This document shows positions 4,057-60,497 of a stretch of DNA of 64,000 nucleotides, in pieces; position 1 is the first letter of the stretch; every line of letters begins with the position of its first letter. The position numbers and the translations under genes are program-made. The notes beneath the pieces are model-generated. The model had not been told where the DNA came from. It did not search any database and saw only the letters and a list, made by a program, of their open reading frames with translations. Location of the stretch: IMG/VR virus record IMGVR_UViG_3300045988_078288. One strand, 5' to 3'. The stretch is from a virus.

Positions 4057-4117
4057 AATATTTAGGTTTTAAGGGACTGGCAGGGAAGCGAACCTCCCCA
4101 CCAGTCGGGTTAATTAC

Positions 4118-4384: not shown

Positions 4385-4396
4385 AGCTCAAGCATT

Positions 4397-4915: not shown

Positions 4916-4934
4916 ACAATTCGCAATTTAGTTG

Positions 4935-5285: not shown

Positions 5286-5409
5286 AATAATTTCTTTATT
5301 TGAAAATTAATTATTAACTTTATATCGGGATAGATGAGAGTAATTAACTCATTGATAAGAGGTATGTCAACGCCTCTTCCCATTTTTCAAGTTGACACGT
5401 TTTGAATAG

Positions 5410-6348: not shown

Positions 6349-7253
6349 CCCCAGAACCCTCCGTTATTAAGGGCATTAAAGCCGTACAGACCCATCTGTG
6401 CTGCTACACAATTTGGAACGGCGGTTGCTTGTGCGTAATTTAACGTTACCGTCTCGGGCATCTTGCATTTGATACCCGCAACCTCCTGCTGCAAGCCTGC
6501 CAACACCGCATTGATAGGAGCGACCGCCTGACCTACAATCTGACTTGTCATAGCCGACGACTTGAACGTTGAGTTCTCCTCACGCAGATGGTCTAACTTG
6601 TCCTGCATCTCTCGAAGCTCTGCGGCACGCTGTCCGTCAAGAATCTGCTGTGTGCTGTTCTGGATAGTGTTGGCAATACTTGAGAAACCGCGCTCCTGAC
6701 TTGTTGCAACGCCATTGATAGAATTCTGCAAGGTGTTGGTCTGCTGGCATGTGGCAAGTCTGTTCTCGCAGCAACAAGAAGCGAGCTGCTGTGCAATCTG
6801 CATGTTGCCTTGCTGGAGAGCGTTGATAACTTGCATACCGCTCATGCCGATCTGATTGCCCACACCCTGAACCTGCGAGGTAAGAGCCGAGATAGCCGCC
6901 TGTATCTGACCTTCGGTGCAGTTAAGCTGTGTAGCAAGGTTGCTTAGAGCGTTTCTGTTTCCACCGATGGCATCCATGAGGAGCGAGCGACCGTAGTCGT
7001 TGTTGATTTCATTAGCAATACCGCCTGCGCGACCATTGCCGAAACCACCCCAACCATTACCGCCCCAACCCATGAGGAAGAATAGGAAAATTACCCACAT
7101 GAAGCCGTCGCCCCAACCATTGCCGTTCTTGTTCATGGCAAGGAGAAGATTAGGGTCAAGACCTCTCTGTTGAAGCAGAGGAGCGAGCAAACTCATCATG
7201 CCACCCTGTCCGCTACCTTCATTGCCGAATACATAAGTTTTTGACTCAGACAT
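6345..7253 (-). CDS. Hypothetical Gly/Trp-rich membrane-associated protein with a Gln/Asn-rich coiled region
   Basis: 302 aa. Contains WVIFLFFLMGWGGNGWGGFGNG followed by a long Q/N-rich helical region. Confidence 0.6.
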   Translation of the reverse strand: MSESKTYVFGNEGSGQGGMMSLLAPLLQQRGLDPNLLLAMNKNGNGWGDGFMWVIFLFFLMGWGGNGWGGFGNGRAGGIANEINNDYGRSLLMDAIGGNRNALSNLATQLNCTEGQIQAAISALTSQVQGVGNQIGMSGMQVINALQQGNMQIAQQLASCCCENRLATCQQTNTLQNSINGVATSQERGFSSIANTIQNSTQQILDGQRAAELREMQDKLDHLREENSTFKSSAMTSQIVGQAVAPINAVLAGLQQEVAGIKCKMPETVTLNYAQATAVPNCVAAQMGLYGFNALNNGGFWG

Positions 7254-48171: not shown

Positions 48172-48236
48172 CGCCTAAAAGGTAGCCGACAGGCTGCCAC
48201 CATTAACCATTTTATTAACAATTAAAAAAAAGAATT

Positions 48237-48314
48237 ATGAAAGAGTTTATTTATTTCTCAACCATGTGCTATGTAGTATTTTACGCTTTATGTCTTGGTT
48301 ACTCAATCGTATAA
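48237..48314 (+). CDS. Possible 25-aa hydrophobic peptide
   Basis: GAATTATG context. Sequence is MKEFIYFSTMCYVVFYALCLGYSIV. Too short to score. Confidence 0.25.
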   Translation: MKEFIYFSTMCYVVFYALCLGYSIV

Positions 48315-48381
48315 TAGCGAGCGTCCAAAATCATGGCAGCATTGCGCTGCCAACAATACCAACCAATAAAATTATAAGATT

Positions 48382-48624
48382 ATGAAGAAAAGACAGATTA
48401 TCTATTCAAGTACGATAATTGTGCTTGGAATTATCCAGTTGCTCCCGTGTGTGTTGCTTGTAAGCAGTACGATAATTGGGAATGTGCTTGGAATTTTCTA
48501 CGCTCTTCTTGTGACGTTCATCTGGACGAGTACGAAAAATGGTCGATGGTTCTGCGTTGAGCTATACCGCAGTACGCTGCGCTTGGAAAAATTCCTGCTC
48601 GGCTGCAACGTGGAGAGTGATTAG
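48382..48624 (+). CDS. Small membrane protein, hypothetical
   Basis: 80 aa with two hydrophobic helices. Contains two of the 22-nt direct repeats. Confidence 0.5.
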   Translation: MKKRQIIYSSTIIVLGIIQLLPCVLLVSSTIIGNVLGIFYALLVTFIWTSTKNGRWFCVELYRSTLRLEKFLLGCNVESD

Positions 48625-48644
48625 TACGATAATTGTGCTTGGAA
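48409..48644 (+). repeat. Three direct copies of AGTACGATAATTGTGCTTGGAA
   Basis: Exact 22-mers at 48409-48430 and 48623-48644. A copy with a 6-nt insertion is at 48466-48493. The third copy lies outside and out of frame with the CDS. Confidence 0.8.
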
Positions 48645-48706
48645 ACTTTCAGCCTAAATGCTGCCCTGCGATGTGGGGCAGTACGATAAATCAACCTTAC
48701 AGAATT

Positions 48707-48901
48707 ATGAGACAGATAGAAATGCGCAGAGTCAAGCGTGACGAGTTTTTCCGCTTGGCAAATTCGGAGTCCGCTCCCGTTTGGGTGCGTGACGAGTACA
48801 ACAGAAGTTCCAAAAAATTCGAGGCGTACAAGTACGACAATGTGAATTATTGGAGCGAGTTCAAAGGTTCACGCCTTGTTTATGTGGATTTTGTGTTCTG
48901 A
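48707..48901 (+). CDS. Hypothetical protein
   Basis: 64 aa from the ATG at 48707 (GAATTATG context). The longer track ORF upstream runs through the intergenic module. Confidence 0.5.
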   Translation: MRQIEMRRVKRDEFFRLANSESAPVWVRDEYNRSSKKFEAYKYDNVNYWSEFKGSRLVYVDFVF

Positions 48902-48970
48902 AAAATTCAGCCTTAAAAACTGCCTGCAAGTCGGGCAGTACGATAAGTAACCAATTAAAGACAAAGGATT

Positions 48971-49237
48971 ATGAAGTTCAAGACATTTTTATTGATTGAA
49001 GCAATCAGATGTGAAGGACTTGACAATGGTCAGTGGGATATCTATTGGCACGTCATCCCTGTGGACACAAAAGAGTTCTACGGAACGAGAGAAAGTCACA
49101 CGCTTCCTGTGGGAGCGTGGATAGCGGTCTACAAATGGAACCATGAAAGGATGGGTTTAATTGACAAGCTCTCTCCTGACTTACATCTGAGTATCAACGA
49201 CAAAGAAGAAGTTCTTTTCTTCAATGTCAGCGAATAG
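48971..49237 (+). CDS. Hypothetical protein (paralog of 50257-50529)
   Basis: 88 aa. Shares EGLDN.QW...VDTKEFYGT...TLP.G.WIAVYK...LFFNVS with its paralog. Confidence 0.6.
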   Translation: MKFKTFLLIEAIRCEGLDNGQWDIYWHVIPVDTKEFYGTRESHTLPVGAWIAVYKWNHERMGLIDKLSPDLHLSINDKEEVLFFNVSE

Positions 49238-49295
49238 TTCACGCCAAAACGCCACTCTTATTTGGGTGGCTCTATCAACCAAAACCAAAAGAATT

Positions 49296-49472
49296 ATGAC
49301 AAACGGAGACAGAATGTTTCTTGCTGCGATTGTGGCAAGCTACAAGAGAGTTATTTCAGCTGAGTGTGAGAGAAGACACCTTGACGAGCGTGAGTATTCA
49401 CGGAGAGCTGCGAAAGCAGACAGGAAAGCGAAGGAGATAGAACGTCATTGCTCTCGTCCGCGTTGTTTCTAA
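49296..49472 (+). CDS. Hypothetical small basic protein
   Basis: 58 aa from a GAATTATG start. Confidence 0.45.
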   Translation: MTNGDRMFLAAIVASYKRVISAECERRHLDEREYSRRAAKADRKAKEIERHCSRPRCF

Positions 49473-49534
49473 GCCTAAAATGGACGTATCGCAAATGATG
49501 CGTCCGCACATCATTAACAACTAAAATTAGAATT

Positions 49535-49858
49535 ATGGAATACTTTAAGACGCAAGAGTACCACACACGCATCGACGTGTATTTTGATGGTGAGAAATAC
49601 GTTTTTATCAACGCTTTTCACGGAATTGTCGCAGTAGCGAGAAGACAGGGACTTGTTGATTTTTCACAGGACGGAAATATGGCTCACGCCAGTTTTGAGG
49701 TGGAAAAATCTTCCACTATAAGCAGAAGTACAATTACCCGTCTTATTCACAAGCAGGAGAGCAAGTATGTGAGTGCCGTTGTTAACTGCGAATGGAACGA
49801 TGTAAAATGTGAGAGTCTTCCTTATTTCGTCAGTGTAGCCCTCGAAAAACGAGATTAG
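49535..49858 (+). CDS. Hypothetical protein
   Basis: 107 aa with a GAATTATG start. Confidence 0.55.
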   Translation: MEYFKTQEYHTRIDVYFDGEKYVFINAFHGIVAVARRQGLVDFSQDGNMAHASFEVEKSSTISRSTITRLIHKQESKYVSAVVNCEWNDVKCESLPYFVSVALEKRD

Positions 49859-49912
49859 TCTAAAAAGGGTAGCCGTTTGGCTACCTCTACAAACCAATTA
49901 AATTACAAAATT

Positions 49913-50047
49913 ATGAGTACAAGAAGAATTGAGTGCAAAGGTGCAGCGTTTATGGAAAGAGTTTTCGCAAAGATGCAGGAAATCTACACACACGTTGAGT
50001 TCCTTGGTTACGACGGCAAATTTCTGACCGTGGCTTACATTGTCTAA
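49913..50047 (+). CDS. Possible 44-aa protein
   Basis: AAATTATG context. Sequence is MSTRRIECKGAAFMERVFAKMQEIYTHVEFLGYDGKFLTVAYIV. Confidence 0.35.
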   Translation: MSTRRIECKGAAFMERVFAKMQEIYTHVEFLGYDGKFLTVAYIV

Positions 50048-50060
50048 AAACTTTAGGATT

Positions 50061-50204
50061 ATGGAAGAAAGAGAAATGATTATTCTCTGCGACGGCTCGT
50101 CGCTGTACGCAGATGTAGACGTGACGGAGTTGAAAGATGGACGCTGGCACGGAACGTGGAACGGACACAACCTGACGTTTCACGGCGGCACGTGGATGGA
50201 GTGA
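50061..50204 (+). CDS. Possible 47-aa protein
   Basis: GGATTATG context. Sequence is MEEREMIILCDGSSLYADVDVTELKDGRWHGTWNGHNLTFHGGTWME. Confidence 0.35.
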   Translation: MEEREMIILCDGSSLYADVDVTELKDGRWHGTWNGHNLTFHGGTWME

Positions 50205-50256
50205 CTAACGCCTAAAATCCTACGCAGTTGCGTAGGGACTATTAACCAATAAATTT

Positions 50257-50529
50257 ATGATTATGACATTAAAGACATTCAAAGTATTCGACGCAATCAA
50301 TCGTGAGGGATTAGATAACACTCAGTGGCTTATTCATGTGCACTTTGAGTCCGTAGACACAAAGGAGTTTTACGGAACGAACGAAAACCGCACGCTGCCC
50401 GCAGGCGTTTGGATAGCCGTGTACAAGAAGCGTGGCGATACGCTCTATTATTTCTCTTGTCTCAAGCCCGATTTGTGCCTTGATATATTCGAGGACGAGG
50501 AGCTGTTATTCTTCAACGTGAGCGATTAG
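50257..50529 (+). CDS. Hypothetical protein (paralog of 48971-49237)
   Basis: The 90-aa track ORF starts at the ATG at 50257. A second ATG at 50263 has the GATTATG context. Confidence 0.6.
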   Translation: MIMTLKTFKVFDAINREGLDNTQWLIHVHFESVDTKEFYGTNENRTLPAGVWIAVYKKRGDTLYYFSCLKPDLCLDIFEDEELLFFNVSD

Positions 50530-50585
50530 CCTAAACTGGCAGTGTAACGCTGCCAACAATATCTAATCAATTAAATTATAGAATT

Positions 50586-50870
50586 ATGACACAAGAACAA
50601 TTAAGCGAGTTGCAGCACGTAAAAGAGCTGTTTAAAAAATTGCAGGAGTTGCAGTATTCAACGATTGGCGACCCTGCCCTGTCCGTAAGCTTGGGTGCTG
50701 GCGGTTATTTACATTCCATAAGCGTTTTTGTTCACGTCAGCGAGGAGTATTCCAATGGAAAAGCGCTTGGGTCGTTTACTCTGGCTGTATTTCTTTCCTC
50801 TAAAGAGAACGAGGATGCCTGCAACGCCTGCATTGCGTTTGTGAACGCACACCGCACACTCAGAGCCTAA
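50586..50870 (+). CDS. Hypothetical protein
   Basis: 94 aa with a GAATTATG start. The stop lies inside the GCCTAAA box. Confidence 0.55.
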   Translation: MTQEQLSELQHVKELFKKLQELQYSTIGDPALSVSLGAGGYLHSISVFVHVSEEYSNGKALGSFTLAVFLSSKENEDACNACIAFVNAHRTLRA

Positions 50871-50919
50871 ACTGGTAGCCGTTTGGCTGCCAACTATTAA
50901 CCAACCAAATCACATAATT

Positions 50920-51087
50920 ATGAATACAGAGAAAAATTTTGTAGTGCTTGAGTTTTACCCGAGTTTTACACCGAGAGTCGTGCGTGAGTTTACGACCCGT
51001 GAGGACGCAGTGAAGTTTGCCGAGCTTATGAAGAAAAGCGAGACAGGCAGACATACCTACGCAGTATTTTCACGCATTGAGCCGTAG
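50920..51087 (+). CDS. Possible 55-aa protein
   Basis: TAATTATG context. Sequence is MNTEKNFVVLEFYPSFTPRVVREFTTREDAVKFAELMKKSETGRHTYAVFSRIEP. Confidence 0.4.
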   Translation: MNTEKNFVVLEFYPSFTPRVVREFTTREDAVKFAELMKKSETGRHTYAVFSRIEP

Positions 51088-51147
51088 AGCCTAAAATCGG
51101 GCGGTACGATAATTCGTGCCGTCTGCCATTAACCAAACAGAATTTTT

Positions 51148-51312
51148 ATGACACAGAATTATTTCGTGTTCCCTCCTTTCGAGGTGTACACAGGCGAACA
51201 ACTTACAAAAGAAGTCAAACAGAGTTTAATTGCCCGTGGTTTGAAATGCGTTGCGGTTGTCTTCAACTGCGAGAGTTACGAAGATTTCGAGCGCAAATAC
51301 TTCGGCAGATAG
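51148..51312 (+). CDS. Possible 54-aa protein
   Basis: Sequence is MTQNYFVFPPFEVYTGEQLTKEVKQSLIARGLKCVAVVFNCESYEDFERKYFGR. Flanked by modules. Confidence 0.4.
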   Translation: MTQNYFVFPPFEVYTGEQLTKEVKQSLIARGLKCVAVVFNCESYEDFERKYFGR

Positions 51313-51366
51313 CCTAAACAGCGGAGATATTTCTCCGCTACTATTACCCAATGAAATTTTAGAATT

Positions 51367-51732
51367 ATGAAAACAGAAATTCCCTGCCCTATCAACGAGA
51401 AAGACTTATGTAGCGACGTTCTCTTCGACGATCTTTTCGACGATAATACGTATTGCTGCGACGGACACGGCGTGCTGATAGGATTTATCCATCGTCACGT
51501 TGTCAAGATAAGTTACAGATACGGCTCAAGTTCCGTACGCCTCGAAGTTCTCGACCATCCGCTCAGCTCGGACATCAAGTCACGGATTATCCAATGGCTT
51601 GAAATCGTCTGCACCGGTGTCAACGAAAATTCCCTTGATGCTAACACAAAGCTACACACCACTGTCTTTTACTACGAGAACACGCGTATCAGTGATATTA
51701 TCTTCAAGTACAGCACGGACGAACCGACCTAA
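51367..51732 (+). CDS. Hypothetical protein
   Basis: 121 aa with a GAATTATG start. Confidence 0.55.
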   Translation: MKTEIPCPINEKDLCSDVLFDDLFDDNTYCCDGHGVLIGFIHRHVVKISYRYGSSSVRLEVLDHPLSSDIKSRIIQWLEIVCTGVNENSLDANTKLHTTVFYYENTRISDIIFKYSTDEPT

Positions 51733-51781
51733 AAAGCCTCCATCCTCGGAGGCACATACAAACCAATTAAATCATTGAATT

Positions 51782-51964
51782 ATGCTAAGAGACAGAAATT
51801 GCGACAAGAATTTTGAACGTTCGTTGATGTATCAGATAAACAAGGCAAAGATTGCTGCTCGCAAGATGCACAACGCACGTATGACCGACTACAATGATCC
51901 GAAATCTGAGAATGATTTTCACGACGCTATTGTTGAGATTGTAGCCATTGCTTATCACGATTGA
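51782..51964 (+). CDS. Hypothetical small protein
   Basis: 60 aa with a GAATTATG start. Confidence 0.45.
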   Translation: MLRDRNCDKNFERSLMYQINKAKIAARKMHNARMTDYNDPKSENDFHDAIVEIVAIAYHD

Positions 51965-52028
51965 GCCTAAACAACCCGTTACGTTTTGTCACGGGTTCAT
52001 TTTATCAACCATTTAAAATTTTAGGATT

Positions 52029-52421
52029 ATGAAAAAGAACCCACGAGATTACAAAGTGAACGGCAAAATGTATGCTTACATCCTTGACTCCATCTCTTCC
52101 GATGATGTAGATGTAGAGTCTATGTCTGACAAGGAGCGCATTGAGTTTGCGCTTGATATGTTCTACGATGAAATCTACAAAAACGACAGGCGCAGAATGT
52201 CTACTCTGGAGAAACTGACATACTGGATTAGTGGTCTGTGCTCTACTGTGAGTGTTACCTTTGCAGATTACGACATTGCACAGCTTGGCAAGGAGTGGGG
52301 TTATTGCAGAACAGACGCAAGAACCTCGCAGTTTGTACGTACATGGTTTGAGCGCATCGCCAATGGTATTCTGCGCCTTGCAAAGATTTACGGCGTGGAT
52401 ATGAGCCGTTTCCGTCGCTAA
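52029..52421 (+). CDS. Hypothetical protein
   Basis: 130 aa with a GGATTATG start. Confidence 0.55.
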   Translation: MKKNPRDYKVNGKMYAYILDSISSDDVDVESMSDKERIEFALDMFYDEIYKNDRRRMSTLEKLTYWISGLCSTVSVTFADYDIAQLGKEWGYCRTDARTSQFVRTWFERIANGILRLAKIYGVDMSRFRR

Positions 52422-52484
52422 TGCCTTAAAATCCTGCGTGACGATTGCACGCAGGAACAATTACAAACCAACAAAAATAAGATT

Positions 52485-52853
52485 ATGAAGAAAAGAACTT
52501 ACAAGACGCTCGCCGGCTTACTTAGAGCAAACGGCGAGCAGCAGTTTACAATGAGCGACTTTTTAGGCGGACAAATCTACGATAATAAGCATTATAAATG
52601 GCGTCCGTTCGAGCTTACCGACAACGCTCTGTGTGAGCTGTCTGACGGCTTCTGTCAAGCACTGGGCTGTCAGAAAAGAAAGTACGACGAGGTATTCCAC
52701 AACATGAAGTACGGCAGAATCGAGAACTGTGGCATACTTTCCCGTCTGTGGGTTGAGCTGCGTGGCAACAAGCCGAGCTTTACCTACTGCGTAGGACAGG
52801 ACGGAGGTTATGAATATCCGCTTGTCAAGAGAATCCTGTATCGTGGTTATTGA
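52485..52853 (+). CDS. Hypothetical protein
   Basis: 122 aa with an AGATTATG start. Confidence 0.55.
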   Translation: MKKRTYKTLAGLLRANGEQQFTMSDFLGGQIYDNKHYKWRPFELTDNALCELSDGFCQALGCQKRKYDEVFHNMKYGRIENCGILSRLWVELRGNKPSFTYCVGQDGGYEYPLVKRILYRGY

Positions 52854-52911
52854 GCCTCAACAAATCTGTGCAGCCTATCTGCACAGAACGACGTTTAACC
52901 CATTAAATATT

Positions 52912-53265
52912 ATGATTATGATAACAGATTATTACACAGCCGTACACTGGCTTGGAAATGCGTTTATCCTCTGCAACAATATTGTGGAGAATGACGAATC
53001 AGTAATTGAGAATATCGAGTATCCAGAGTGGACAAATGACAATGAAGACGGCAGGGACGGAATCGAGATATTCCAGTGGTTTCTCACTAACATGAGCGGC
53101 GAAGATAAGGAATGGATGCAGAAGAATTTCCCTGACCTTATCTTCTCTTACTCAGACAAGCTCGACTTGTGGATTCTTTGCGTAGATCATTTCGGAACGA
53201 TGTGGAAGGGAGTTTCCACGACTACCAACTGCGAGAATGCAGCAAAAGCAAGCCAGCTGCTGTAG
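52912..53265 (+). CDS. Hypothetical acidic protein
   Basis: Tandem ATGs at 52912 and 52918 (TATGATTATG). About 116 aa. Confidence 0.5.
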   Translation: MIMITDYYTAVHWLGNAFILCNNIVENDESVIENIEYPEWTNDNEDGRDGIEIFQWFLTNMSGEDKEWMQKNFPDLIFSYSDKLDLWILCVDHFGTMWKGVSTTTNCENAAKASQLL

Positions 53266-53315
53266 CCAAACCAATCCTCACTCCCACGGGTGGGGATTTC
53301 TATTAACCAAATTTT

Positions 53316-53597
53316 ATGATTATGACGAGAGAAGAATTTATCGAAAAGTGCAACCATGTTGTTCGCAACTACAGAAACGTAGAGGAGTTTAACAAGTGTA
53401 TCAACCAAATACTCGACTCTGGCTGCATTGACTTGGATAAAGTTCCGCAGGATTACACTCCAGCCTATTGGGCTGTAGGTGCAATGTTTCAGCGGTCAGC
53501 CGACCAGTGCGTCAACGGAAGCGCTTACGAAGAAAGGCGCAGAAGAGACCGCAGAAAAGCTAAAAATATTGCGAAGTTCATTCCGTTGTGGTTTTGA
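53316..53597 (+). CDS. Hypothetical protein
   Basis: 93 aa with tandem ATGs at 53316 and 53322. Confidence 0.5.
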   Translation: MIMTREEFIEKCNHVVRNYRNVEEFNKCINQILDSGCIDLDKVPQDYTPAYWAVGAMFQRSADQCVNGSAYEERRRRDRRKAKNIAKFIPLWF

Positions 53598-53655
53598 TAA
53601 GCCTAAAAGACTCTCCCTTGTGGAGAGTGCAAGTATAACCTAAAAACAAAGAATT

Positions 53656-54195
53656 ATGGAAAAGAATATTGTAGAAGTTGTTATGAACAACAAAGGCGAG
53701 GTTGTCGAGAAGGTAGCCGACTACATCGGTGTTTTCAGTTTCGCTAAAACGATAGAAGCTCTTTATCGTGAGTGTCTTGAAGACTGCGACAATCCAGAGG
53801 ATATAGAGGAATACATTGCCGATTTGTACGGCAAGAATATCCAGTCTCTTGCGCGGGATTTTGCTCTTGAATCAAATAGAGACATGAAGAAATATCTTCA
53901 CATGAACAATCATAGTATGCCTGGAAATTTCGCAGACATCGAGGACGATTATCCCGCTCATATTACGGGTACACGTTGGTCTTCTGAGTATGCCGGAGAT
54001 GATTACTTCCGTCTGTTTCCTCAAATGGTTGCTCGTTTGGATTCCGCAGAAGACAGCGAGCGAGCTAAAGAGGATAGAGCATATCTTGAAGATTGGTTTT
54101 TCGATGCCTTCGGTACATACAACATCAAGTACAATTTCAGCAACTGGCTTTCTGAGATTGTGTACATGCGCGAAGAAGAACAGGCTATCGCCTAA
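53656..54195 (+). CDS. Strongly acidic hypothetical protein
   Basis: 179 aa with a large excess of Asp and Glu. GAATTATG start. Confidence 0.55.
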   Translation: MEKNIVEVVMNNKGEVVEKVADYIGVFSFAKTIEALYRECLEDCDNPEDIEEYIADLYGKNIQSLARDFALESNRDMKKYLHMNNHSMPGNFADIEDDYPAHITGTRWSSEYAGDDYFRLFPQMVARLDSAEDSERAKEDRAYLEDWFFDAFGTYNIKYNFSNWLSEIVYMREEEQAIA

Positions 54196-54242
54196 ACTGC
54201 CTCCCTTTTGGGAGGTACGATTAACCAACAAACAGAAGAATT

Positions 54243-54692
54243 ATGGCATTACAATGGAAATGGACTGACAAGATGGGCAAGGCAATCATCTCTCAGAACG
54301 AGAGAAAGTACGAGATTGGCATCTACGGCGGCAACGCTCTTGCGATATTCATCAGTGAGGACAAAGACTCATACCAGCTCTACAAGGCTGTCGCAGCGTT
54401 CAACCGTGACCGCCACAATCTCCGTTGGCAGACCAAGCAGTCAAAGGCGTTCACCGATGCCTACAAGGGCTCTGGTGCGTACTTCACGATGAAGAACCTC
54501 ATCCTGTTCCACGGCGCACGCTTCAATGGCTGCACCACGGCAAAGCAGTCGCTCGCACGCATGGAAAATCTCGCCTCGAACCTCGAAGGTTGGGAACTCC
54601 TCGGTGCAATGAAGCAGCTTATCAAGGACTCTGGCATCTCTGTCGAAAAGAAGATTGCCGAGTGGAAGAAACAGCCTGCAACTAAGAAGTAG
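54243..54692 (+). CDS. Hypothetical protein
   Basis: 149 aa with a GAATTATG start. Confidence 0.55.
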   Translation: MALQWKWTDKMGKAIISQNERKYEIGIYGGNALAIFISEDKDSYQLYKAVAAFNRDRHNLRWQTKQSKAFTDAYKGSGAYFTMKNLILFHGARFNGCTTAKQSLARMENLASNLEGWELLGAMKQLIKDSGISVEKKIAEWKKQPATKK

Positions 54693-54913
54693 TACGCAGC
54701 CAAGAAGGAATTGCCGTTCCGTCTGCGGTGGCTCGGCATCATTTATGAAAGCTCAGCAGAAGAAGGTTCCTTACCCGCCTATCGGTCAGGAACCTTCCTT
54801 GCAAGCTTTGAAATCACACGCTTACAGACAGACACCCGTCCGTGAGCCGCAGACAAGCCTAAACCTATCCGTTGTTCAGCAGCGGATAGCCTATCAACCA
54901 AAATTTGTTTATT

Positions 54914-55111
54914 ATGAAGTACAGAATTGTTTTCTACACCTTCGAGTACGAGGGTGTGAACGCAGCGTTGGACAAGTCAATGCCTATGTCACGCTATGCC
55001 TGCCGTAAGTATCTCCGCGAAAACGGATGGAAGTACGAGAAATCACGATGGCGCAACGGCTTCGGTTCGTTCGCCGCCATCGTGGAGTACAAGACACGCT
55101 CCGCAGCCTAA
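54914..55111 (+). CDS. Hypothetical small protein upstream of the RT
   Basis: 65 aa from the ATG at 54914 (TTATTATG). The stop lies inside the GCCTAAA box. Confidence 0.45.
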   Translation: MKYRIVFYTFEYEGVNAALDKSMPMSRYACRKYLRENGWKYEKSRWRNGFGSFAAIVEYKTRSAA

Positions 55112-55176
55112 ACCACAAGTGGTTACACATCGTAACCGCTTGACTTATTTACAAACCATTAAATAACAATAGAATT

Positions 55177-56445
55177 ATGAAAGAAGATAAGATTTTAGAG
55201 ATGTTTTTCGCCCCCGAACGCTGGCAGTACGCAATCGCCAAAGGTGTTGTCAAGGACATATCCAAGGGCGTGCTCTACAAGCTCACCAAACCCGAGGCGC
55301 GCGCACTCATGTATCAGCGCATCCGTGACGGCAAGTACAAGATAATGCCGCCACATACAGCGCAGATACCGAAAGATAACGGCGAGTTCCGTACTGTATA
55401 TGTGAACGAGCCTGCCGACCGAGTGTTGCTCTCCATCGCCAACGACCTTCTCTTCGAGCTTATGCCCGAGATGGTTCATCCGAGCTGTCGCTCGTATCAG
55501 AAAGGTATCGGCTGCGGTAAGGTGGTACAGGAGGTTTCACGCCGTATGTGTGCGTTGCAGACTTCCGATGTGCTCGGCTTCAAGTCCGATTTGTCGAAGT
55601 ATTTTGACAGTGTTCCGTTGGAGTTCGTTGACGCAGCTTTTGACAAGGTGGAGGAAAAGTACGGGCACTCGGCTCTGATAGACGTTCTTCGCGACTACTA
55701 TCACTCCGACCTGTACTTCACTCCCGAAGGTGAGCTGCACGAGAAGTACCAGTCGTTGAAGCAGGGTTGCTCCGTTGCCTCGTGGCTCGCAGACGTAATC
55801 CTGTATCATATCGACGAGAAACTATCGCAGCTCGAAGGCTATTACGCTCGATACTCCGACGATATGCTTTATGTCGGTAGTGACTACGTTAAGGCGATGC
55901 ACATTCTTACGGAGGAGCTTGGCAAGATGCAGATGAAGCTCAACCCGAAGAAGGTGGAGTATCTTGACGCAAACCACTGGTTCAAGTTCCTCGGCTATTC
56001 AATCAAGGGCAGTAGCATATCGCTTTCCTCTACACGCATCAAGACGTTTCAGAAGGAGATAGAGTCGCGTTCGTGCTGTAGACGAGGTGCAACGCTTACT
56101 ACATCGGTAAACATGATTAACCGATACCTCTACAAGGGTTATGACGGTCACTCATGGGCTACGCAGGTTCTCCCGATAATCAACGTAAAGGAGGACATCG
56201 ACACGCTGTCTACGTTCATTCTTGACGCTCTGCGTGCTACCGCAACCGGCAAGCGACGCATTGGAGGTCTTGGTTTTGCCAAGGAACAGAAGATGGGATG
56301 TATCTCACGAGGACGAGGAAAGAATGTCACAACTAACAGAGCTAAGACACCCGAGCGTATTGACGGCTTTATGTCACTTGGTCTCATGCGCAACGCATTG
56401 CTGACCTCGCGAGCTGCATACGACACACTTGTAGCCAATCTCTGA
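55177..56445 (+). CDS. Reverse transcriptase (stand-alone, RT domain only; class unassigned)
   Basis: RT motifs present: IPKDNGEFRTVYV, ADRVLLSIA, GFKSDLSKYFDSV (motif A Asp), LKQGCSVASWLADV (motif B), YARYSDDMLYVG (motif C, YSDD) and FKFLGYSI. 422 aa. Confidence 0.9.
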   Translation: MKEDKILEMFFAPERWQYAIAKGVVKDISKGVLYKLTKPEARALMYQRIRDGKYKIMPPHTAQIPKDNGEFRTVYVNEPADRVLLSIANDLLFELMPEMVHPSCRSYQKGIGCGKVVQEVSRRMCALQTSDVLGFKSDLSKYFDSVPLEFVDAAFDKVEEKYGHSALIDVLRDYYHSDLYFTPEGELHEKYQSLKQGCSVASWLADVILYHIDEKLSQLEGYYARYSDDMLYVGSDYVKAMHILTEELGKMQMKLNPKKVEYLDANHWFKFLGYSIKGSSISLSSTRIKTFQKEIESRSCCRRGATLTTSVNMINRYLYKGYDGHSWATQVLPIINVKEDIDTLSTFILDALRATATGKRRIGGLGFAKEQKMGCISRGRGKNVTTNRAKTPERIDGFMSLGLMRNALLTSRAAYDTLVANL

Positions 56446-57461
56446 CAAACGCCTAAAAACGGATGCAGCCCAAACGCTGCATCCACAACCAAAACCAAAT
56501 ATGAATTTCCGAGAACACGGAACTGCGCAACGCAGGATGCCACATTTATATACCCGCCTCAAAGATTCGGGATGTCTCTGGACAATCCAGAGCGTATCCC
56601 GAATCCTAAAGGCTGGTACAATCACGACCATACAGAAATGTTCCACGGCATAATGCCTGTGCAAGGCGGCGCACACCGCCCTCGGCTTGAAGAATGGCAT
56701 CCGTTTAGCGCTCAGGTTGCTAACGATGACGACGTCGATACGAACCTATCGACGTCGTCATCGAGAAACCTGACCTACATCACTCGTTTACATCCATGTG
56801 CCACAGCCATCGTTCAAGCCCACTCACGTCAGCGCAGACGTTCGTCTTCCCCGAAGGAGTACATTTGCTACACCAAGCTTACACGCGGCGCTTGGATGGT
56901 TATCACCATCTCGCTCGCCGCGTGCTTGCTTCAGTTCGACCAAACCCTTACAGCCATGCGCCACGCTCCTTGTGGAAGACAAGCCATTGCAAGCCTAAAT
57001 CGGGCACGATGGGGAGACAACGTTTATATCCCAGTACATAAGGGCTGTGTTAGTGCCGGTTGCAACAACCGGCGCACCCAGCCCCACTACTGGGCTAAAT
57101 CAGATTCTTACAGCAATGTACCCGTCTCCAATCGTGCCCACAATACAACCAACGGAATTTTGCGGTTCCTTATGACGTGCCGTGCAGCCTACTTTAATGA
57201 TACCGGTTTCGTATCATCCGCCGTCCACCAGGTTGACACCTGGCTCCCTGCCGATTTCTCAACCGGTACATATCAAATCCTTACAGTCACGCAACACGGC
57301 TACAGGCACGTCATTACTTTAAAAAGTGCTGCATTTGTTCGTGAAATAGCGATAAAATCACTACCTTTGCATTATAAACCAATCACAAACCAATCAGCAA
57401 TGCTTGCCTTAACGACCTCGTATTGTAGAGGTCGCTATTAACCAATAAATTAGATTAAATT
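56446..57461 (+). ncRNA. Candidate RT-associated structured RNA (1016 nt; coding status unresolved)
   Basis: No ORF has the operon start context except a 50-codon one at 56501. About 33% C versus 21% G over 56761-57300 (hand count). More than 10 hairpins, including a perfect 16-bp stem at 56725-56762 and a 10+7-bp stem at 56564-56605. Bounded by the standard intergenic modules. Confidence 0.4.
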
Positions 57462-58019
57462 ATGGCAGTAACAAAATTTGTAAGAGCGCAGGACATTCTC
57501 AAGGAGAAAGGGTTCAAAGCGCCACCGTTCGATACGGCGGGATTTCAGAACGCAGTCGTGGAGTTCTTTCGCAACAATGATGTATCAGCAAAATTGCCGG
57601 TTATTCCGTTACGCTTTGTGGAATTGCCCGACCCGCCGCAAAGTGGCTTTTCCATGCCAGAAAAAGTAATGTTGCACGCACCCGACTGGCACGTCTACTA
57701 TGAACGTTCCACGGGCGTAACAGTTATTGAAAACAACAAGGCGGCAAAAGCACTGGAAGAACTCGGAGGGGAACTCGAAACCGATGACGGGCGCTATTAT
57801 TTCTTTGAATACAGAAATGCCGGCACAGAACAAGTATATAAGGGCGGACATACGGACGTTAATGGGATTACTTACGCGGAAAAGCCTGTAATTTTCGTGG
57901 ACGAGCCATACGCAGCCAATGCGGTGGCTTTATTGAAGATGGCTGGCTTTATCGTAAGCCGAAAGCACAAATACAGTGGAAGCAAGTATCTATCTTGTTA
58001 CGATGTAACCCTCACCTAA
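57462..58019 (+). CDS. Hypothetical protein
   Basis: 185 aa with an AAATTATG start. First gene after the RT-associated segment. Confidence 0.55.
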   Translation: MAVTKFVRAQDILKEKGFKAPPFDTAGFQNAVVEFFRNNDVSAKLPVIPLRFVELPDPPQSGFSMPEKVMLHAPDWHVYYERSTGVTVIENNKAAKALEELGGELETDDGRYYFFEYRNAGTEQVYKGGHTDVNGITYAEKPVIFVDEPYAANAVALLKMAGFIVSRKHKYSGSKYLSCYDVTLT

Positions 58020-58053
58020 GCCAAACAGTCTCTTCGGAGACTACAACTAACCA

Positions 58054-58077
58054 AGCCCTACGCAACACGGTCAAGCG
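58054..58077 (+). promoter_or_regulatory. Leader motif copy 1 (AGCCCTACGCAACACGGTCAAGCG)
   Basis: One of four related 24-26-nt elements located 2-9 nt upstream of a start codon. Confidence 0.6.
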
Positions 58078-58084
58078 ATATGAA

Positions 58085-58423
58085 ATGCCCAACAACAAGA
58101 AACAGGAGAATGTGGATGACATCCGTAAGGACTTCGCAAAGCGGGTCTACGACCTCTATATCAATGCTGCCAACGGAAAGATTGATACCTACGACAAGTT
58201 TCTGACTCGTTTGGAGTGGCTTGAAATAGACTACTCCGACGCATTGTCCCCATACGGAATATACGAAGACCTGTGTCCTGACGACTTCGATTTGGTGAAA
58301 ATGGCGATAGAGGAGGGTACACCCCTCAAGGACTTCGCCTATCAATGGTTGAACATATACAATATCATTGAGTTCGCCAAAGTGGATACAAGTTCGCTCG
58401 TGCCTCCAACATCCGACAATTAG
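58085..58423 (+). CDS. Hypothetical protein
   Basis: 112 aa from the ATG at 58085 (MPNNKKQENVDD...), preceded by the leader motif. Confidence 0.5.
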   Translation: MPNNKKQENVDDIRKDFAKRVYDLYINAANGKIDTYDKFLTRLEWLEIDYSDALSPYGIYEDLCPDDFDLVKMAIEEGTPLKDFAYQWLNIYNIIEFAKVDTSSLVPPTSDN

Positions 58424-58485
58424 TCAAAACGGCAGGTTTACCCCTGCCACCAATTAAACCCTATTATAAACAAAATAACAGAATT

Positions 58486-59211
58486 ATGAAAAAGAGATTT
58501 TCTATGCTTCCAGTCTTTGCGTTTGTAGCATCCATGTTTATGTTATCTGCGTGTGGTGATGATGATGATAGCGGTAGTACCGTTCCTCAAACCCCGTCCT
58601 ATAAAATAAAAAATGGCAATATTGTAGGAGTGTGGAGAAATGGCAGCGATTGTTTTGTGTCATTCTCGGCAAACGGATATAACTCTGCGCTATTATCTAA
58701 TACGTTTATTGATGATGGCGACTATACAATCAATGGTGACACAATCCTTGTACACAACACTTATTTCGCAAATACAACAAAATATGTTGTAAACGATATA
58801 ACAAATGACGCTCTAACTGTTACCATTACATACAAAGACCGTTGGACGGAAGAGAAAACTGTTAAGGCTAAATTTAATAAGGCTATTGACACTCCGTGCG
58901 TCAAGACTCACGCTTTGGCCGGAAAATCCTATTTGGCGCAATATGCGTTTAAATATGGTGGTCAAATGTGGAGAAAAGACTTTTTTAGCTACAATACGGC
59001 ATCTTGCACAAGACAGGATCTGGCTCAATCAACCCCATCTACCTTTTATTATGTTTATTTAGCCCCCAAAATCTATTTTTATGTTATCCAGTATAGTATG
59101 TTTTATTACGATACGGTAAGATATGGTACGGTTGTTCTTGACGCGAATAATCAAATAGAAAGTATGGGGTCTCTTTACGGAGAAGCGATGTATCCACAAT
59201 CGTTATATTAA
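58486..59211 (+). CDS. Lipoprotein, hypothetical
   Basis: Signal peptide and lipobox MKKRFSMLPVFAFVASMFMLSAC followed by GDDDDSG. 241 aa. Confidence 0.7.
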   Translation: MKKRFSMLPVFAFVASMFMLSACGDDDDSGSTVPQTPSYKIKNGNIVGVWRNGSDCFVSFSANGYNSALLSNTFIDDGDYTINGDTILVHNTYFANTTKYVVNDITNDALTVTITYKDRWTEEKTVKAKFNKAIDTPCVKTHALAGKSYLAQYAFKYGGQMWRKDFFSYNTASCTRQDLAQSTPSTFYYVYLAPKIYFYVIQYSMFYYDTVRYGTVVLDANNQIESMGSLYGEAMYPQSLY

Positions 59212-59393: not shown

Positions 59394-60497
59394 ATGACAC
59401 AGCTACTTAGCACAAGACGCTGGATGGACCTGCTCACTCCCGAGCAGCAGAAAACCTACTCCAGCGCAATCCGAAAAGGTTACTTTGCGACTTATGACGG
59501 CTATCGTTGGCGTCACGAGTTCTATGGAGCTTTCATCTGGAAACACCCTGGACGCGTGAAGATCATTGATAAATTCAAGCAGGTTATCGGTCGTGCACCA
59601 TTGTGGGAGGACATCACGGACGACAACCTGCGAGACCTGAAGGAAGAGCTGGACGCTTCCTATGCGCCGAACTCTGTGCGTACAATATGCGCAGAGATTA
59701 ACGCAATCATCCGTGAGAATGCAGAGTCGAAAGACATTCCTTCCATGTCCTATGCCCGTGTGCTGCGTGCAAAGAAGGTGGTGGTACAGTCCGTGTTTCT
59801 CACCGACGAGGAGATACGCAAGATACACGAGTATCGCCCTAAGACAGTACGCAGACGACATGCAAAGCGCATCTTCATGCTTGAATGCCTTTGCGGAGCA
59901 CGTTTCTCCGACTGCCTGCGCCTCTCGCCCGTAAACCTCTCTTCTGATGGTCGCACCCTGACTTATGTATCAAAGAAGACCAACCATGAGGTGACGGTTC
60001 CCGTGCACCCGTGGCTAAGGGAGTATCTCGTTCCGTCTTCACCTATCGAACCGCAGTCACTTGCAGTTCCTTCCTACAACGACGCGATACGTTTCTTCTG
60101 CCAATCATGCGGTATCGACCAGCAGGTTAAGGTGTACCAGGCAGGTCGCGAGCAGACAGGCCCGAAGTGGAAGTTTGTATCAACACATACAGGTAGACGC
60201 TCGTTTGCAACCAACCTGTCGTTGAAGAACGTACCGTTGGAGCAGATAGCGTTGATGATGGGTCACTTCACGGGCAACGCCCCGGATGTTTCCATGACGC
60301 AGCGATACATCGTGACGCGACTCCAGCTGTCGCCCGCAGCGTTCCAGGCGTTCTCGATTCCTGGTTCCGAAAGAGCGGCGGCAGAGAACGAGGCTTACAA
60401 CAACCCGACAAACGATTTTGACGACTTCGACGACTTCGATATTCCCGAGGACGAACAGCTCGTTATACCCGAGAGACCGCAGACCGAAGCATCGTAA
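59394..60497 (+). CDS. Tyrosine recombinase / integrase with an acidic C-terminal tail
   Basis: ARFSD (Arg), HTGRRSFAT (H-x-x-R), MMGH and QRYI (Tyr). The C-terminal extension contains NDFDDFDDFDIPEDE. Confidence 0.8.
   Translation: MTQLLSTRRWMDLLTPEQQKTYSSAIRKGYFATYDGYRWRHEFYGAFIWKHPGRVKIIDKFKQVIGRAPLWEDITDDNLRDLKEELDASYAPNSVRTICAEINAIIRENAESKDIPSMSYARVLRAKKVVVQSVFLTDEEIRKIHEYRPKTVRRRHAKRIFMLECLCGARFSDCLRLSPVNLSSDGRTLTYVSKKTNHEVTVPVHPWLREYLVPSSPIEPQSLAVPSYNDAIRFFCQSCGIDQQVKVYQAGREQTGPKWKFVSTHTGRRSFATNLSLKNVPLEQIALMMGHFTGNAPDVSMTQRYIVTRLQLSPAAFQAFSIPGSERAAAENEAYNNPTNDFDDFDDFDIPEDEQLVIPERPQTEAS

What the first reader, a model, noticed from the sequence alone, without database searches (positions are those of the whole stretch)
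56443..57441. The RT stop codon is followed, in the same frame, by 332 consecutive sense codons
Seen: the RT ends at TGA 56443-56445. The next in-frame stop is TAA at 57439-57441, so the frame stays open for 332 codons (the track's 289-aa ORF 56572-57441 is its ATG-delimited part). With the local composition (T about 22%, A about 27%, G about 19-21%) I estimate one stop per roughly 25-30 codons by chance. On that basis a 332-codon open run has a probability on the order of 1e-5. The other two forward frames have ordinary stop density.

Three things argue against a normal gene. The product is rich in His, Cys, Thr, Arg and Pro and poor in Lys and Glu, unlike every other protein here. G is only weakly enriched at codon position 1 (about 26%). 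The frame also runs straight through the standard post-gene module (GCCTAAA plus hairpin at 56451-56484) and through the terminal module hairpin at 57414-57433.

Possibilities to separate are: (i) chance; (ii) UGA readthrough or recoding giving an RT fusion; (iii) a decayed or unusual gene; (iv) selection for a stop-free template, as in DRT2, where a stop-free repeat copied by the RT becomes a translated 'neo' ORF. Option (iv) is speculation.
Basis: partly seen in the sequence, partly recalled or inferred. Interest (0 to 1): 0.7.

Follow-up and report, generated by a model that had tools for sequence, protein, structure and literature searches.

The report
Chance open frame across phage RT non-coding RNA
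The long stop-free stretch after the phage reverse-transcriptase gene is real but is not a gene or a recoding signal: it is a chance by-product of a C-rich, non-coding array of five structured RNA modules that accompanies this known family of phage reverse transcriptases (UG27).

Summary
The sequence facts hold. The RT ends at TGA 56443-56445 and the same frame stays open for 331 sense codons to TAA 57439-57441. No composition-matched shuffle reached that length (0 of 20,000).

The frame shows no sign of selection. In 15 of 17 phages with at least 98% identical RT it is broken or phase-shifted by indels. About 21 of 22 indel events are not multiples of three. Variants fall evenly on the three codon positions (79/69/75, against 14/9/84 in the RT). 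More distant lineages have stops in every frame. The RT stop itself alternates between TGA, TAA and TAG at one position.

The RT is a full-length UG27 enzyme (class 2 UG/Abi). The "ORF" lies on the UG27-associated non-coding region. Here that region resolves into five tandem modules of about 120 nt, spaced about 160 nt apart. Each module has an outer stem, a long variable hairpin and a conserved single-stranded motif, AUCA-N6-UACAG-NN-AYG. Covariation is strong, and arrays of 3-8 such modules follow the RT in every lineage examined.

Stop triplets are only about half as frequent as base composition predicts on the sense strand of these arrays. With the stop density of independent related arrays, a 332-codon open frame has a probability of about 1e-3 to 4e-3, not 1e-5. 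Verdict: ordinary.

The parts
55177..56445 (+). Reverse transcriptase gene (422 aa, UG27 group of class 2 UG/Abi RTs), stop TGA 56443-56445
   Evidence: PADLOC RT_UG27 E=7.6e-213 over residues 3-422 of a 420-position profile. Pfam RVT_1 E=1.2e-18. The stop position is conserved as TGA, TAA or TAG in 80 related loci. Variants are 85 synonymous, 22 non-synonymous and 0 stops.
56446..57441 (+). The reported open frame: 331 sense codons plus TAA, in phase with the RT stop. Judged non-coding and a chance feature.
   Evidence: establish the observation. Searches show that the frame is not conserved and evolves without coding constraint.
56451..56484 (+). Gene-end motif GCCTAAA (56451-56457) followed by a hairpin (56461-56484)
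   Evidence: Read directly from the sequence. GCCTAAA occurs 20 times in the window, 19 of them on the + strand and 16 between 48173 and 56999.
56533..56654 (+). ncRNA module 1
   Evidence: Covariance model R1, 67.9 bits, E=2.5e-18. Folding z-score -6.2.
56692..56812 (+). ncRNA module 2. It contains the perfect 17-bp hairpin 56724-56763, and its inner hairpin is hypervariable among close relatives.
   Evidence: R1 49.0 bits, E=1.2e-12. Folding z-score -8.7. Eight hairpin alleles that keep pairing. Nucleotide diversity up to 0.21, against 0.024 in the RT.
56853..56972 (+). ncRNA module 3 (hypervariable inner hairpin)
   Evidence: R1 67.1 bits, E=4.1e-18. Nine hairpin alleles.
57011..57131 (+). 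ncRNA module 4
   Evidence: R1 53.9 bits, E=3.8e-14. Folding z-score -8.0.
57182..57305 (+). ncRNA module 5
   Evidence: R1 89.5 bits, E=7.7e-25. Folding z-score -4.4.
57410..57437 (+). Terminal hairpin, followed by AACCAA and the start of the next gene
   Evidence: Inverted repeat I12 and the sequence itself.
54730..54846 (+). Degenerate sixth module upstream of the RT, in the gap after the 149-aa gene
   Evidence: R1 11.8 bits, E=0.17 in the window. The same position scores E=2e-4 to 3e-5 in relatives, for example L004 3546-3669 and L015 3548-3669.
57462..58019 (+). Downstream gene (185 aa, no family match), conserved neighbour of the RT-array unit
   Evidence: ORF list. Homologues lie next to the array in many loci. 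No Pfam or PHROGs match.

Best explanation
The 1-kb gap after the RT gene is not translated. It is the non-coding RNA region of a phage UG27 reverse-transcriptase system.

The region is built from five tandem structured modules on the sense strand. Each module has an outer stem P1, a 5' loop with UUYA, a long variable hairpin P2, and a 3' single-stranded motif AUCA-N6-UACAG-NN-AYG-YNCCAC.

The stop-free frame is an accident. The array is C-rich and T-poor, and TAA and TAG are under-represented, so stop triplets occur at about half the frequency expected from base composition, in all three frames. In this one shallow clade none happens to fall in the frame that continues from the RT stop.

Shown here: the family of the RT, the modular conserved structure, and the absence of coding or stop-avoidance constraint.

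Inferred by analogy with the class 2 UG RTs whose mechanism is known (DRT2, DRT9, DRT10): the array is transcribed with or after the RT gene, the RT binds the conserved motif of each module, and it reverse-transcribes a neighbouring segment into cDNA.
For: Not coding, and no selection on the frame:
- RT_UG27 matches full length, E=7.6e-213.
- In relatives with at least 98% RT identity, the in-phase open run after the RT stop is 18, 108 or 183 codons in 15 of 17.
- About 22 indel events were found; only one (+3) is a multiple of three, and the RT gene has none.
- The 223 variants fall 79/69/75 on codon positions, with 53 synonymous against 51.8 expected. The RT gives 14/9/84, with 85 synonymous and 22 non-synonymous.
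- Window against L004, both with the frame intact: 5 synonymous and 18 non-synonymous in the gap, against 29 and 3 in the RT.
- New stop sites among relatives number 2, 5 and 8 in frames 0, 1 and 2.
- Lineages with 70-93% RT identity have 3-25 stops in every frame.
- The RT stop is TGA, TAA or TAG at the same position.
- The 43 database proteins that match the ORF are all fragments (21-88% coverage, at least 56% identity, no domains). There are no Pfam, PADLOC or PHROGs matches.
- Codon-usage score is -0.03, against 0.32 +/- 0.15 for 21 genes.

A structured module array:
- Five modules are found by the covariance model, E=1e-12 to 8e-25, all on the + strand.
- There are 211 hits in 39 sources, all on the + strand, in arrays of 3-8 modules directly after the RT.
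- 76.3% of cells are paired, against 47.1% when shuffled. The covariation score is 0.664, against 0.195 shuffled (0 of 500 shuffles reach it) and 0.13-0.16 with slid partners.
- Hairpin alleles keep pairing.

Why chance is enough:
- Sense-strand stop triplets are at 0.22-0.60 of expectation in C-rich arrays, against about 1.0 on the antisense strand.
- With the stop density of independent related arrays, P = 1.4e-3 for a given frame.

Literature:
- Mestre et al. 2022 (PMC9226505) describe a putative ncRNA with three long stem-loops between the UG27 RT and the next gene in 1,447 dereplicated gut phage genomes.
Against: - No dinucleotide shuffle reached the observed length (0 of 20,000).
- Conditional on the 24 stop triplets present, none falling in one given frame has P = (2/3)^24, about 6e-5 (my calculation). 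The event is therefore still rare.
- Frame 0 has the best codon-usage score of the three frames and the fewest new stops among relatives (2 against 5 and 8), although neither difference is significant.
- TAA and TAG are somewhat more depleted than their permutations in related arrays (0.44 and 0.39 against 0.6-1.0), which I cannot fully explain.
- G-U pairs are not more frequent than A-C mismatches in the fitted alignment (205 against 217), so the data do not prove that the structure forms in RNA of this strand.
- No transcription, cDNA or translation data were available.
Confidence: 0.86

Rival explanations
1. A young or decaying lineage-specific gene. The 289-aa ORF 56572-57441 (or a shorter version) would be translated in this clade and overprinted on the ncRNA array.
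For: - The open frame is long: 0 of 20,000 shuffles reach it.
- Many close relatives keep 196-325 open codons in the homologous frame.
- One called ORF of 261 aa has 652 member sequences.
- +1 and -1 indels 33 nt apart, at 56575 and 56608, compensate each other.
- Frame 0 has the highest codon score of the three frames.
Against: - Variants show no third-position bias, and the synonymous fraction equals the random expectation.
- Most indels are uncompensated and not multiples of three.
- The ATG lies inside a module stem and lacks the AACCAA...A/T-rich start context of the neighbouring genes.
- There is no full-length homologue, no domain and no distant relative.
- The frame is absent from lineages with 93% RT identity or less.
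- The long open runs in relatives are explained by shared ancestry at about 95% identity.
Confidence: 0.06
2. UGA readthrough or recoding produces an RT fusion protein with a 331-residue C-terminal extension.
For: The frame is in phase with the RT stop. A second lineage (L029) also has an in-phase open run, 221 codons after TAA, that fills its gap.
Against: - The stop is TGA, TAA or TAG at the same position in different lineages.
- A 2-nt deletion at 56494 shifts the phase in 12 of 17 close relatives.
- Close relatives of L029 (L027, L028, L030, L036) do not keep the phase.
- There is no tRNA gene, and so no suppressor, in the 64-kb window.
- The UG27 profile ends at the RT stop (residues 3-422 of a 420-position profile).
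- The frame runs through the gene-end hairpin and five stable stem-loops.
Confidence: 0.02
3. Selection for a stop-free template, as in DRT2. The RT would copy the region and the product would be expressed as a new ORF.
For: - Class 2 UG RTs do copy neighbouring ncRNAs, and DRT2 makes a gene that way (PMC12632851).
- Sense-strand stop triplets are depleted in all frames in C-rich arrays.
- Long open runs recur: 331 codons in the window clade, 228 in L019 and 221 in L029.
Against: - The stop-free property is not conserved. The 70%-identity lineages have 10-25 stops in each frame of the array.
- Close relatives carry frameshifts and new stops at about the same rate in this frame as in the others.
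- The RT is UG27, not UG2 (the Drt2 profile gives only a partial match, E=6.9e-11).
- TAG depletion is genome-wide (observed/expected 0.56 in the rest of the window).
- The depletion is frame-independent, which is not what a defined ORF would produce.
Confidence: 0.02
4. The modules act as DNA rather than RNA, for example as an origin, recombination sites or protein-binding repeats. The region would still be non-coding, but not an RT template or scaffold.
For: The repeats are tandem with a period of about 160 nt. G-U pairs are not more frequent than A-C mismatches. There are no expression data.
Against: - All 211 hits are strictly co-oriented with the RT gene and its transcription direction.
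- The arrays start about 30-90 nt after the RT stop in every lineage.
- The conserved motif is asymmetric and lies in a single-stranded loop between covarying stems.
- The related RT groups DRT2, DRT9 and DRT10 all use adjacent ncRNAs.
- Mestre et al. reached the same ncRNA reading.
Confidence: 0.05

Closest known systems
UG27 reverse-transcriptase systems of human-gut Bacteroidetes/Firmicutes phages (Mestre et al. 2022, NAR, PMC9226505)
   Same: The RT matches the UG27 profile over its full length. It is encoded in a phage with an integrase. A gap of about 1 kb with conserved structured elements lies between the RT and the next conserved gene. That paper reports a putative ncRNA there with three long stem-loops, and CRISPR spacers that target the gap.
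   Different: Here the region resolves into five tandem copies, plus one upstream copy, of one module type. Each carries a conserved single-stranded AUCA-N6-UACAG-NN-AYG motif and an inner hairpin that is swapped between near-identical phages. I could not check how much of this is already described. The 2022 supplement is not held. A September 2026 preprint that mentions UG27 74 times and "UG27 ncRNA" 11 times could not be read.
DRT2 (UG2): ncRNA-templated rolling-circle synthesis of the stop-free neo gene
   Same: It is a class 2 UG RT with an adjacent structured ncRNA, and a stop-free frame in the template is the hallmark of the system.
   Different: The RT group differs (UG27). The open frame here is not conserved even among near-identical phages. 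No single looped template is evident; instead there are 3-8 similar modules. In DRT2 the ncRNA lies 5' of the RT gene, whereas here the array lies 3' of it.
DRT9 (UG28) and DRT10 (UG17): ncRNAs with a short template loop bounded by stem-loops, giving protein-primed repetitive cDNA
   Same: These are among the nearest characterised RT groups by profile score (Drt9 5.8e-25, UG17 1.2e-24). As in DRT10, there is a single-stranded loop flanked by structure.
   Different: Those systems have one ncRNA per RT and are bacterial defence systems. Here there is a multi-copy array in a phage. No poly-U tract and no A-B-A' template pattern was identified. The cDNA product is unknown.
Retron msr-msd ncRNA
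   Same: Both have an outer stem formed by the two ends, a long variable hairpin with compensatory changes, a conserved unpaired segment next to the outer stem, and an adjacent RT gene on the same strand (my own knowledge of retrons).
   Different: The RT is not of the retron type (best retron profile E=3.8e-11, against 7.6e-213 for UG27). No Rfam family matches. The modules are tandemly repeated. No branching-G context was identified.

Membership tests
UG27 phage RT system (class 2 UG/Abi) | The RT belongs to the UG27 sequence group | tested here: met
   PADLOC RT_UG27 E=7.6e-213, residues 3-422 against profile positions 2-420 of 420. The next best profile is UG26 at 9.7e-32.
UG27 phage RT system (class 2 UG/Abi) | Intact RT catalytic core (RVT_1 domain, YxDD) | tested here: met
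   Pfam RVT_1 E=1.2e-18 over residues 64-276. The motif Y-S-D-D is read directly in '...YYARYSDDMLYVG...'.
UG27 phage RT system (class 2 UG/Abi) | Encoded in a phage genome of the gut Bacteroidetes/Firmicutes virome | tested here: met
   396 relatives were found in IMG/VR viral contigs. A tyrosine integrase lies at 59394-60497. A cultured relative exists, Bacteroides phage BS-TP1.
UG27 phage RT system (class 2 UG/Abi) | A sizeable non-coding region with conserved RNA structure between the RT and the next conserved gene | tested here: met
   Five covariance-model hits in the window, 211 hits in 39 sources, and covariation score 0.664 against 0.195 shuffled.
UG27 phage RT system (class 2 UG/Abi) | Association with the accessory protein clusters 337, 346 and 336 of Mestre et al. 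| not testable with these tools
   The cluster profiles are not available. Homologues of the 149-aa and 185-aa neighbours co-occur with the RT in most loci, but I cannot equate them with those clusters.
Ordinary protein-coding gene | Substitutions concentrated at third codon positions, with an excess of synonymous changes | tested here: not met
   Codon positions 79/69/75, and 53 synonymous against 51.8 expected. The RT control gives 14/9/84, with 85 synonymous and 22 non-synonymous. Window against L004 gives 5 synonymous and 18 non-synonymous.
Ordinary protein-coding gene | Indels in multiples of three, with the frame kept in relatives | tested here: not met
   About 21 of 22 indel events are not multiples of three, and 15 of 17 close relatives lose the frame or the phase.
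Ordinary protein-coding gene | Full-length homologues or a family match | tested here: not met
   Only fragmentary near-identical ORF calls were found. There are no Pfam, PADLOC or PHROGs matches. tblastn finds nothing beyond nucleotide-level similarity in lineages with 93% RT identity or less.
Programmed stop-codon readthrough / recoding | A conserved leaky stop, with the downstream frame conserved in phase | tested here: not met
   The stop alternates between TGA, TAA and TAG. The in-phase open run is 1-90 codons in most lineages. A 2-nt deletion at 56494 is present in 12 close relatives.
Programmed stop-codon readthrough / recoding | A suppressor tRNA or an alternative genetic code | tested here: inconclusive
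   No tRNA gene is present in the 64-kb window. The rest of the phage genome and the host were not available.
DRT2-type de novo gene template | RT of group UG2 | tested here: not met
   The Drt2 profile gives only a partial match, E=6.9e-11 over residues 193-323.
DRT2-type de novo gene template | A stop-free frame of the template conserved across homologues | tested here: not met
   Other lineages have 3-25 stops in each frame. New stops arise in this frame among close relatives.
DRT2-type de novo gene template | Concatemeric cDNA with a promoter formed across the repeat junction | not testable with these tools
   This needs cDNA sequencing from infected cells.

The most novel reading that the evidence does not exclude
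The general depletion of stop triplets on the sense strand of the C-rich UG27 arrays, together with the recurrence of gap-filling open frames, might reflect selection. The open frames are 331 codons here, 221 codons in phase with the RT stop in L029, and 228 codons in L019. On this reading the array RNA, or a cDNA copy made by the RT, would have to stay translatable in some lineages. That would be a phage-borne, DRT2-like way of creating protein-coding sequence from a non-coding template.
Probability: 0.03. Interest if true: 0.85.

Novelty: already known. Interest (0 to 1): 0.2.

Why it matters
For the finding as stated, the result is a caution. In C-rich, TA-poor structured RNA regions, kilobase-long open frames arise by chance much more often than base composition suggests, and gene callers do call them: 43 fragmentary ORF clusters, one with 652 member sequences. 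Comparing close relatives for indel lengths and codon-position bias settles such cases quickly.

The element underneath is more interesting than the ORF. A phage-encoded class 2 UG reverse transcriptase sits next to an array of 3-8 copies of one structured module. The inner hairpins of the modules are exchanged between otherwise identical phages. The function of UG27 in phages is unknown. The cultured Bacteroides phage BS-TP1 carries the same arrangement and offers a direct way to test it.

Tried and rejected
- Rfam scan of 54000-58500 at E<=1: only three chance-level matches (mir-598, chrB-b, PhotoRC-I), all far below their gathering scores.
- My first count of stop-creating variants (8 against 9.4 expected) treated each substitution alone on the window background. 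Re-reading the real codons in the relatives leaves only 2 substitution-derived stop sites in frame 0, against 5 and 8 in the other frames. I use the corrected numbers.
- RNAalifold on a MAFFT alignment of 40 module representatives gave no structure, because the variable hairpins were misaligned. I replaced it with a covariance model built from per-sequence constrained folds.
- The G-U against A-C test, meant to show that pairing is in RNA of the + strand, was not informative (205 against 217).
- A search for copies of the hairpin sequences elsewhere in the window, as possible targets or guides, found none. The only 13-mer matches were the AACCAA gene-start motifs.
- No suppressor tRNA was found.
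- The promoter and terminator scans showed nothing specific in the gap.
- PDB sequence search: the nearest solved RTs are distant, with a group II intron RT at E=5e-9.
- The INPHARED phage collection has only two distant matches, both to the RT gene.
- The September 2026 preprint on UG27 ncRNA and the 2022 supplement could not be read.
Full report
**Observation**

The RT ORF runs from 55177 to 56445 and ends in TGA. The same frame then continues for 331 sense codons to TAA 57439-57441.

- The other two forward frames carry 8 and 16 stops. The three reverse frames carry 13, 17 and 19.
- Composition is A 27%, C 30%, G 20%, T 22%.
- In 20,000 dinucleotide-preserving shuffles of the RT-to-next-gene interval, the longest open run averaged 108 codons and never exceeded 318.

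**What the RT is**

The protein matches the PADLOC profile RT_UG27 end to end (E=7.6e-213). The next best profiles are UG26, Drt9 (UG28) and UG17 (DRT10). It has an RVT_1 domain and a YSDD motif.

Mestre et al. 2022 (PMC9226505) describe UG27 as a class 2 UG/Abi RT. It is common in human-gut phages of Bacteroidetes and Firmicutes, with 1,447 dereplicated genomes, and is not enriched in defence islands. They report a putative ncRNA with three long stem-loops in the intergenic region between the RT and the next conserved gene. That region is also targeted by CRISPR spacers.

The window carries a phage integrase at 59394-60497.

**Is the frame conserved?**

A scan of IMG/VR gave 396 relatives, of which 80 loci were kept.

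Seventeen of them have at least 98% identical RT protein. In these, the open run in phase with the RT stop is:
- 18 codons in eleven loci,
- 108 codons in three,
- 183 codons in two,
- 325 codons in one.

Aligned to the window, these relatives differ by about 22 indel events inside the gap: -2, +1, -1, -1, +2, -46, +11 and so on. Only one (+3) is a multiple of three. The RT gene has no indels at all.

Lineages with 93%, 87%, 82% and 70-73% RT identity have stops in all three frames. They show no protein-level similarity to the ORF beyond what nucleotide similarity explains.

The RT stop sits at the same position everywhere but is TGA, TAA or TAG depending on the lineage. It is therefore a genuine, conserved terminator.

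No tRNA gene is present in the window.

**How does the region evolve?**

- Among the close relatives, the 223 distinct substitutions in the gap fall 79/69/75 on the three codon positions of the open frame. 53 are synonymous, against 51.8 expected at random. The RT gene gives 14/9/84, with 85 synonymous, 22 non-synonymous and no stops.
- For the one relative that keeps the frame (L004), the gap has 5 synonymous and 18 non-synonymous changes. The RT has 29 and 3.
- Reading real codons in the relatives, new stops arise at 2 sites in frame 0, 5 in frame 1 and 8 in frame 2. This is not a significant difference, especially as several of the frame-2 sites belong to one replaced hairpin.
- A search of 5.8 billion predicted proteins found 43 matches. 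All are fragments (21-88% coverage, 56-99% identity) without domains or names. This is the expected pattern when gene callers pick variable pieces of a broken frame.
- Codon usage in the frame scores -0.03. The 21 long genes of the window score 0.32 +/- 0.15, and off-frame sequence scores -0.39 +/- 0.12.

The frame is therefore under neither coding selection nor detectable stop-avoidance.

**What is really there**

Repeat finding showed a 25-nt motif recurring every 160 nt or so, and long inverted repeats around each copy. Each of the five units folds far better than shuffles, with z-scores of -6.2, -8.7, -2.6, -8.0 and -4.4.

The motif TCA-N6-TACAG-NN-AYG occurs in 2-6 copies after the RT in nearly every locus and never on the opposite strand.

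I built a covariance model from 24 diverse units. It finds exactly five modules in the gap:
- 56533-56654
- 56692-56812
- 56853-56972
- 57011-57131
- 57182-57305

Their E-values are 1e-12 to 8e-25. There is also a weak sixth module upstream at 54730-54846.

In 39 sources the model gives 211 hits, all on the sense strand. They are tiled every 155-175 nt in arrays of 3-8 modules that begin just after the RT stop, with a few solitary copies elsewhere.

On the 132 distinct sequences:
- 76.3% of cells are paired, against 47.1% when shuffled.
- All 24 pairs show changes on both sides.
- The covariation score is 0.664, against 0.195 in shuffles (0 of 500 reach it) and 0.13-0.16 when partners are slid.
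- The alignment is fitted to the model, which favours the structure.

Independent support comes from the close relatives. The inner hairpins of modules 2-4 exist as 8-9 alleles each, including complete replacements, and all of them still fold. Nucleotide diversity there reaches 0.17-0.21, against 0.024 in the RT. L001 has an RT gene identical to the window at every nucleotide, yet its array has 101 substitutions and 9 indels.

The cultured Bacteroides phage BS-TP1 has the same layout. Its RT homologue, annotated "tail protein", is followed by a 1,349-nt unannotated gap that contains modules.

No Rfam family matches.

**Why the frame is open**

Stop triplets on the sense strand of the arrays are rarer than base composition predicts, in all frames.
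- Observed/expected is 0.51 in the window array and 0.22-0.60 in the other C-rich lineages, against about 1.0 on the antisense strand.
- Part of this is the genome-wide avoidance of TAG and CTA (0.56 and 0.47 in the rest of the window) and of TA dinucleotides.
- The stop density measured in independent C-rich arrays, excluding the window clade, is 0.0196 per codon. With it, a 332-codon open run has P = 1.4e-3 in a given frame and about 4e-3 in any frame.
- Runs of 150-228 codons do occur in other C-rich lineages, in non-homologous frames.
- With more than a thousand distinct UG27 phage genomes known, one clade with a fully open frame is expected by chance.

Some points remain unexplained. The shuffle and conditional tests still give 1e-4 to 1e-5 (and my calculation). 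TAA and TAG are also more depleted than their permutations.

**How it most likely works**

Shown here:
- The RT belongs to UG27.
- A conserved, covarying, strand-specific module is repeated in tandem.
- The region is not coding.

Inferred:
- The array is transcribed in the sense direction with or after the RT gene.
- The RT recognises the conserved single-stranded motif that sits between the outer stem and the variable hairpin.
- It uses a neighbouring segment as a template for cDNA.

This would follow the class 2 UG RTs whose mechanisms are known. DRT2 uses a looped template for rolling-circle synthesis. DRT9 copies a poly-U tract. DRT10 copies a loop template bounded by a stem-loop, with protein priming (PMC12632851).

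Which segment is copied, what primes synthesis, and what the product does for the phage are all unknown. Mestre et al. suggest an anti-defence or addiction role. The rapid exchange of the inner hairpins suggests that they carry specificity, but this is speculation.

**Comparison and novelty**

The element is a member of the UG27 phage system already described in 2022. Every defining feature I could test is met. It is not a DRT2-type template, not a recoding site and not an ordinary gene; in each case a defining feature was tested and failed.

The resolution into tandem copies of one module, with a defined motif and swappable hairpins, goes beyond the "three long stem-loops" in the text I could read. 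However, a September 2026 preprint that mentions UG27 74 times, "UG27 ncRNA" 11 times and cDNA 24 times could not be opened. I therefore make no novelty claim for it.

**Verdict**

The open frame is real as a string of letters and ordinary as biology: a chance feature of a known non-coding region.

Noticed in passing
window 57600-57950 (inside the 185-aa gene 57462-58019): The middle of the gene just downstream of the array differs by 38-52% at nucleotide level among phages whose flanks are about 97% identical. Only L008 and L011 carry the window's allele; the other relatives are 44-50% identical at protein level. This looks like allelic replacement of a variable protein next to the RT-array unit.
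   Followed up: partly
window 54730-54846; L004 3546-3669; L005 1794-1914; L018 1200-1319; L043 8475-8593: Solitary copies of the same RNA module lie outside the main array. One degenerate copy sits upstream of the RT in the window. Others lie about 2 kb upstream of the RT in relatives. In the 70%-identity group, another sits next to the homologue of the 149-aa gene.
   Followed up: partly
window 56712-56775, 56868-56940, 57036-57090 and the same places in L001-L020: The inner hairpins of modules 2-4 are hypervariable or replaced outright between phages with identical or near-identical RT, and they always keep pairing. L001 has 0 nucleotide differences in the RT but 101 substitutions and 9 indels in the array. 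L011 lacks the apex of the module 4 hairpin (-46 nt).
   Followed up: partly
window 48173-56999, + strand: GCCTAAA occurs 20 times in the window (8.2 expected). Nineteen copies are on the + strand and 16 lie in this 9-kb cluster of small genes. The TAA is usually the stop codon of the preceding gene and is followed by a hairpin and AACCAA before the next ATG. After the RT the motif is out of frame with the gene's TGA, and one copy (56993) lies inside the array.
   Followed up: partly
arrays of L017, L018, L019, L021, L022, L027, L029, L030: Stop triplets on the sense strand are at 0.22-0.64 of the mononucleotide expectation, against about 1.0 on the antisense strand. TAA (0.44) and TAG (0.39) are more depleted than permutations of the same bases (0.6-1.0). 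TA avoidance explains this only in part.
   Followed up: partly
L029 3514-4186: In a second lineage (72% RT identity), the RT stop (TAA) is followed in phase by 221 open codons that fill the whole 673-nt gap; an ATG-started 207-aa ORF lies at 3556-4179. Its close relatives L027, L028, L030 and L036 do not keep this.
   Followed up: partly
L081 (Bacteroides phage BS-TP1, PQ571274.1) 3854-6465: In a cultured phage, the UG27 RT homologue gp79 is annotated as "tail protein". It is followed by a 1,349-nt stretch with no annotated gene that contains at least three modules.
   Followed up: yes
L054 4001-5266: This RT homologue has an in-frame TAG after 299 codons, and the frame then continues for another 121 codons. 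It may be a pseudogene, an assembly error or TAG recoding in that phage.
   Followed up: no
window 56501-56653: A 50-aa ORF in another frame starts at an ATG right after the RT's gene-end hairpin, in the usual AACCAA...ATG gene-start context. It runs into module 1. A 2-nt deletion at 56494 lies just upstream of it in 12 relatives.
   Followed up: no
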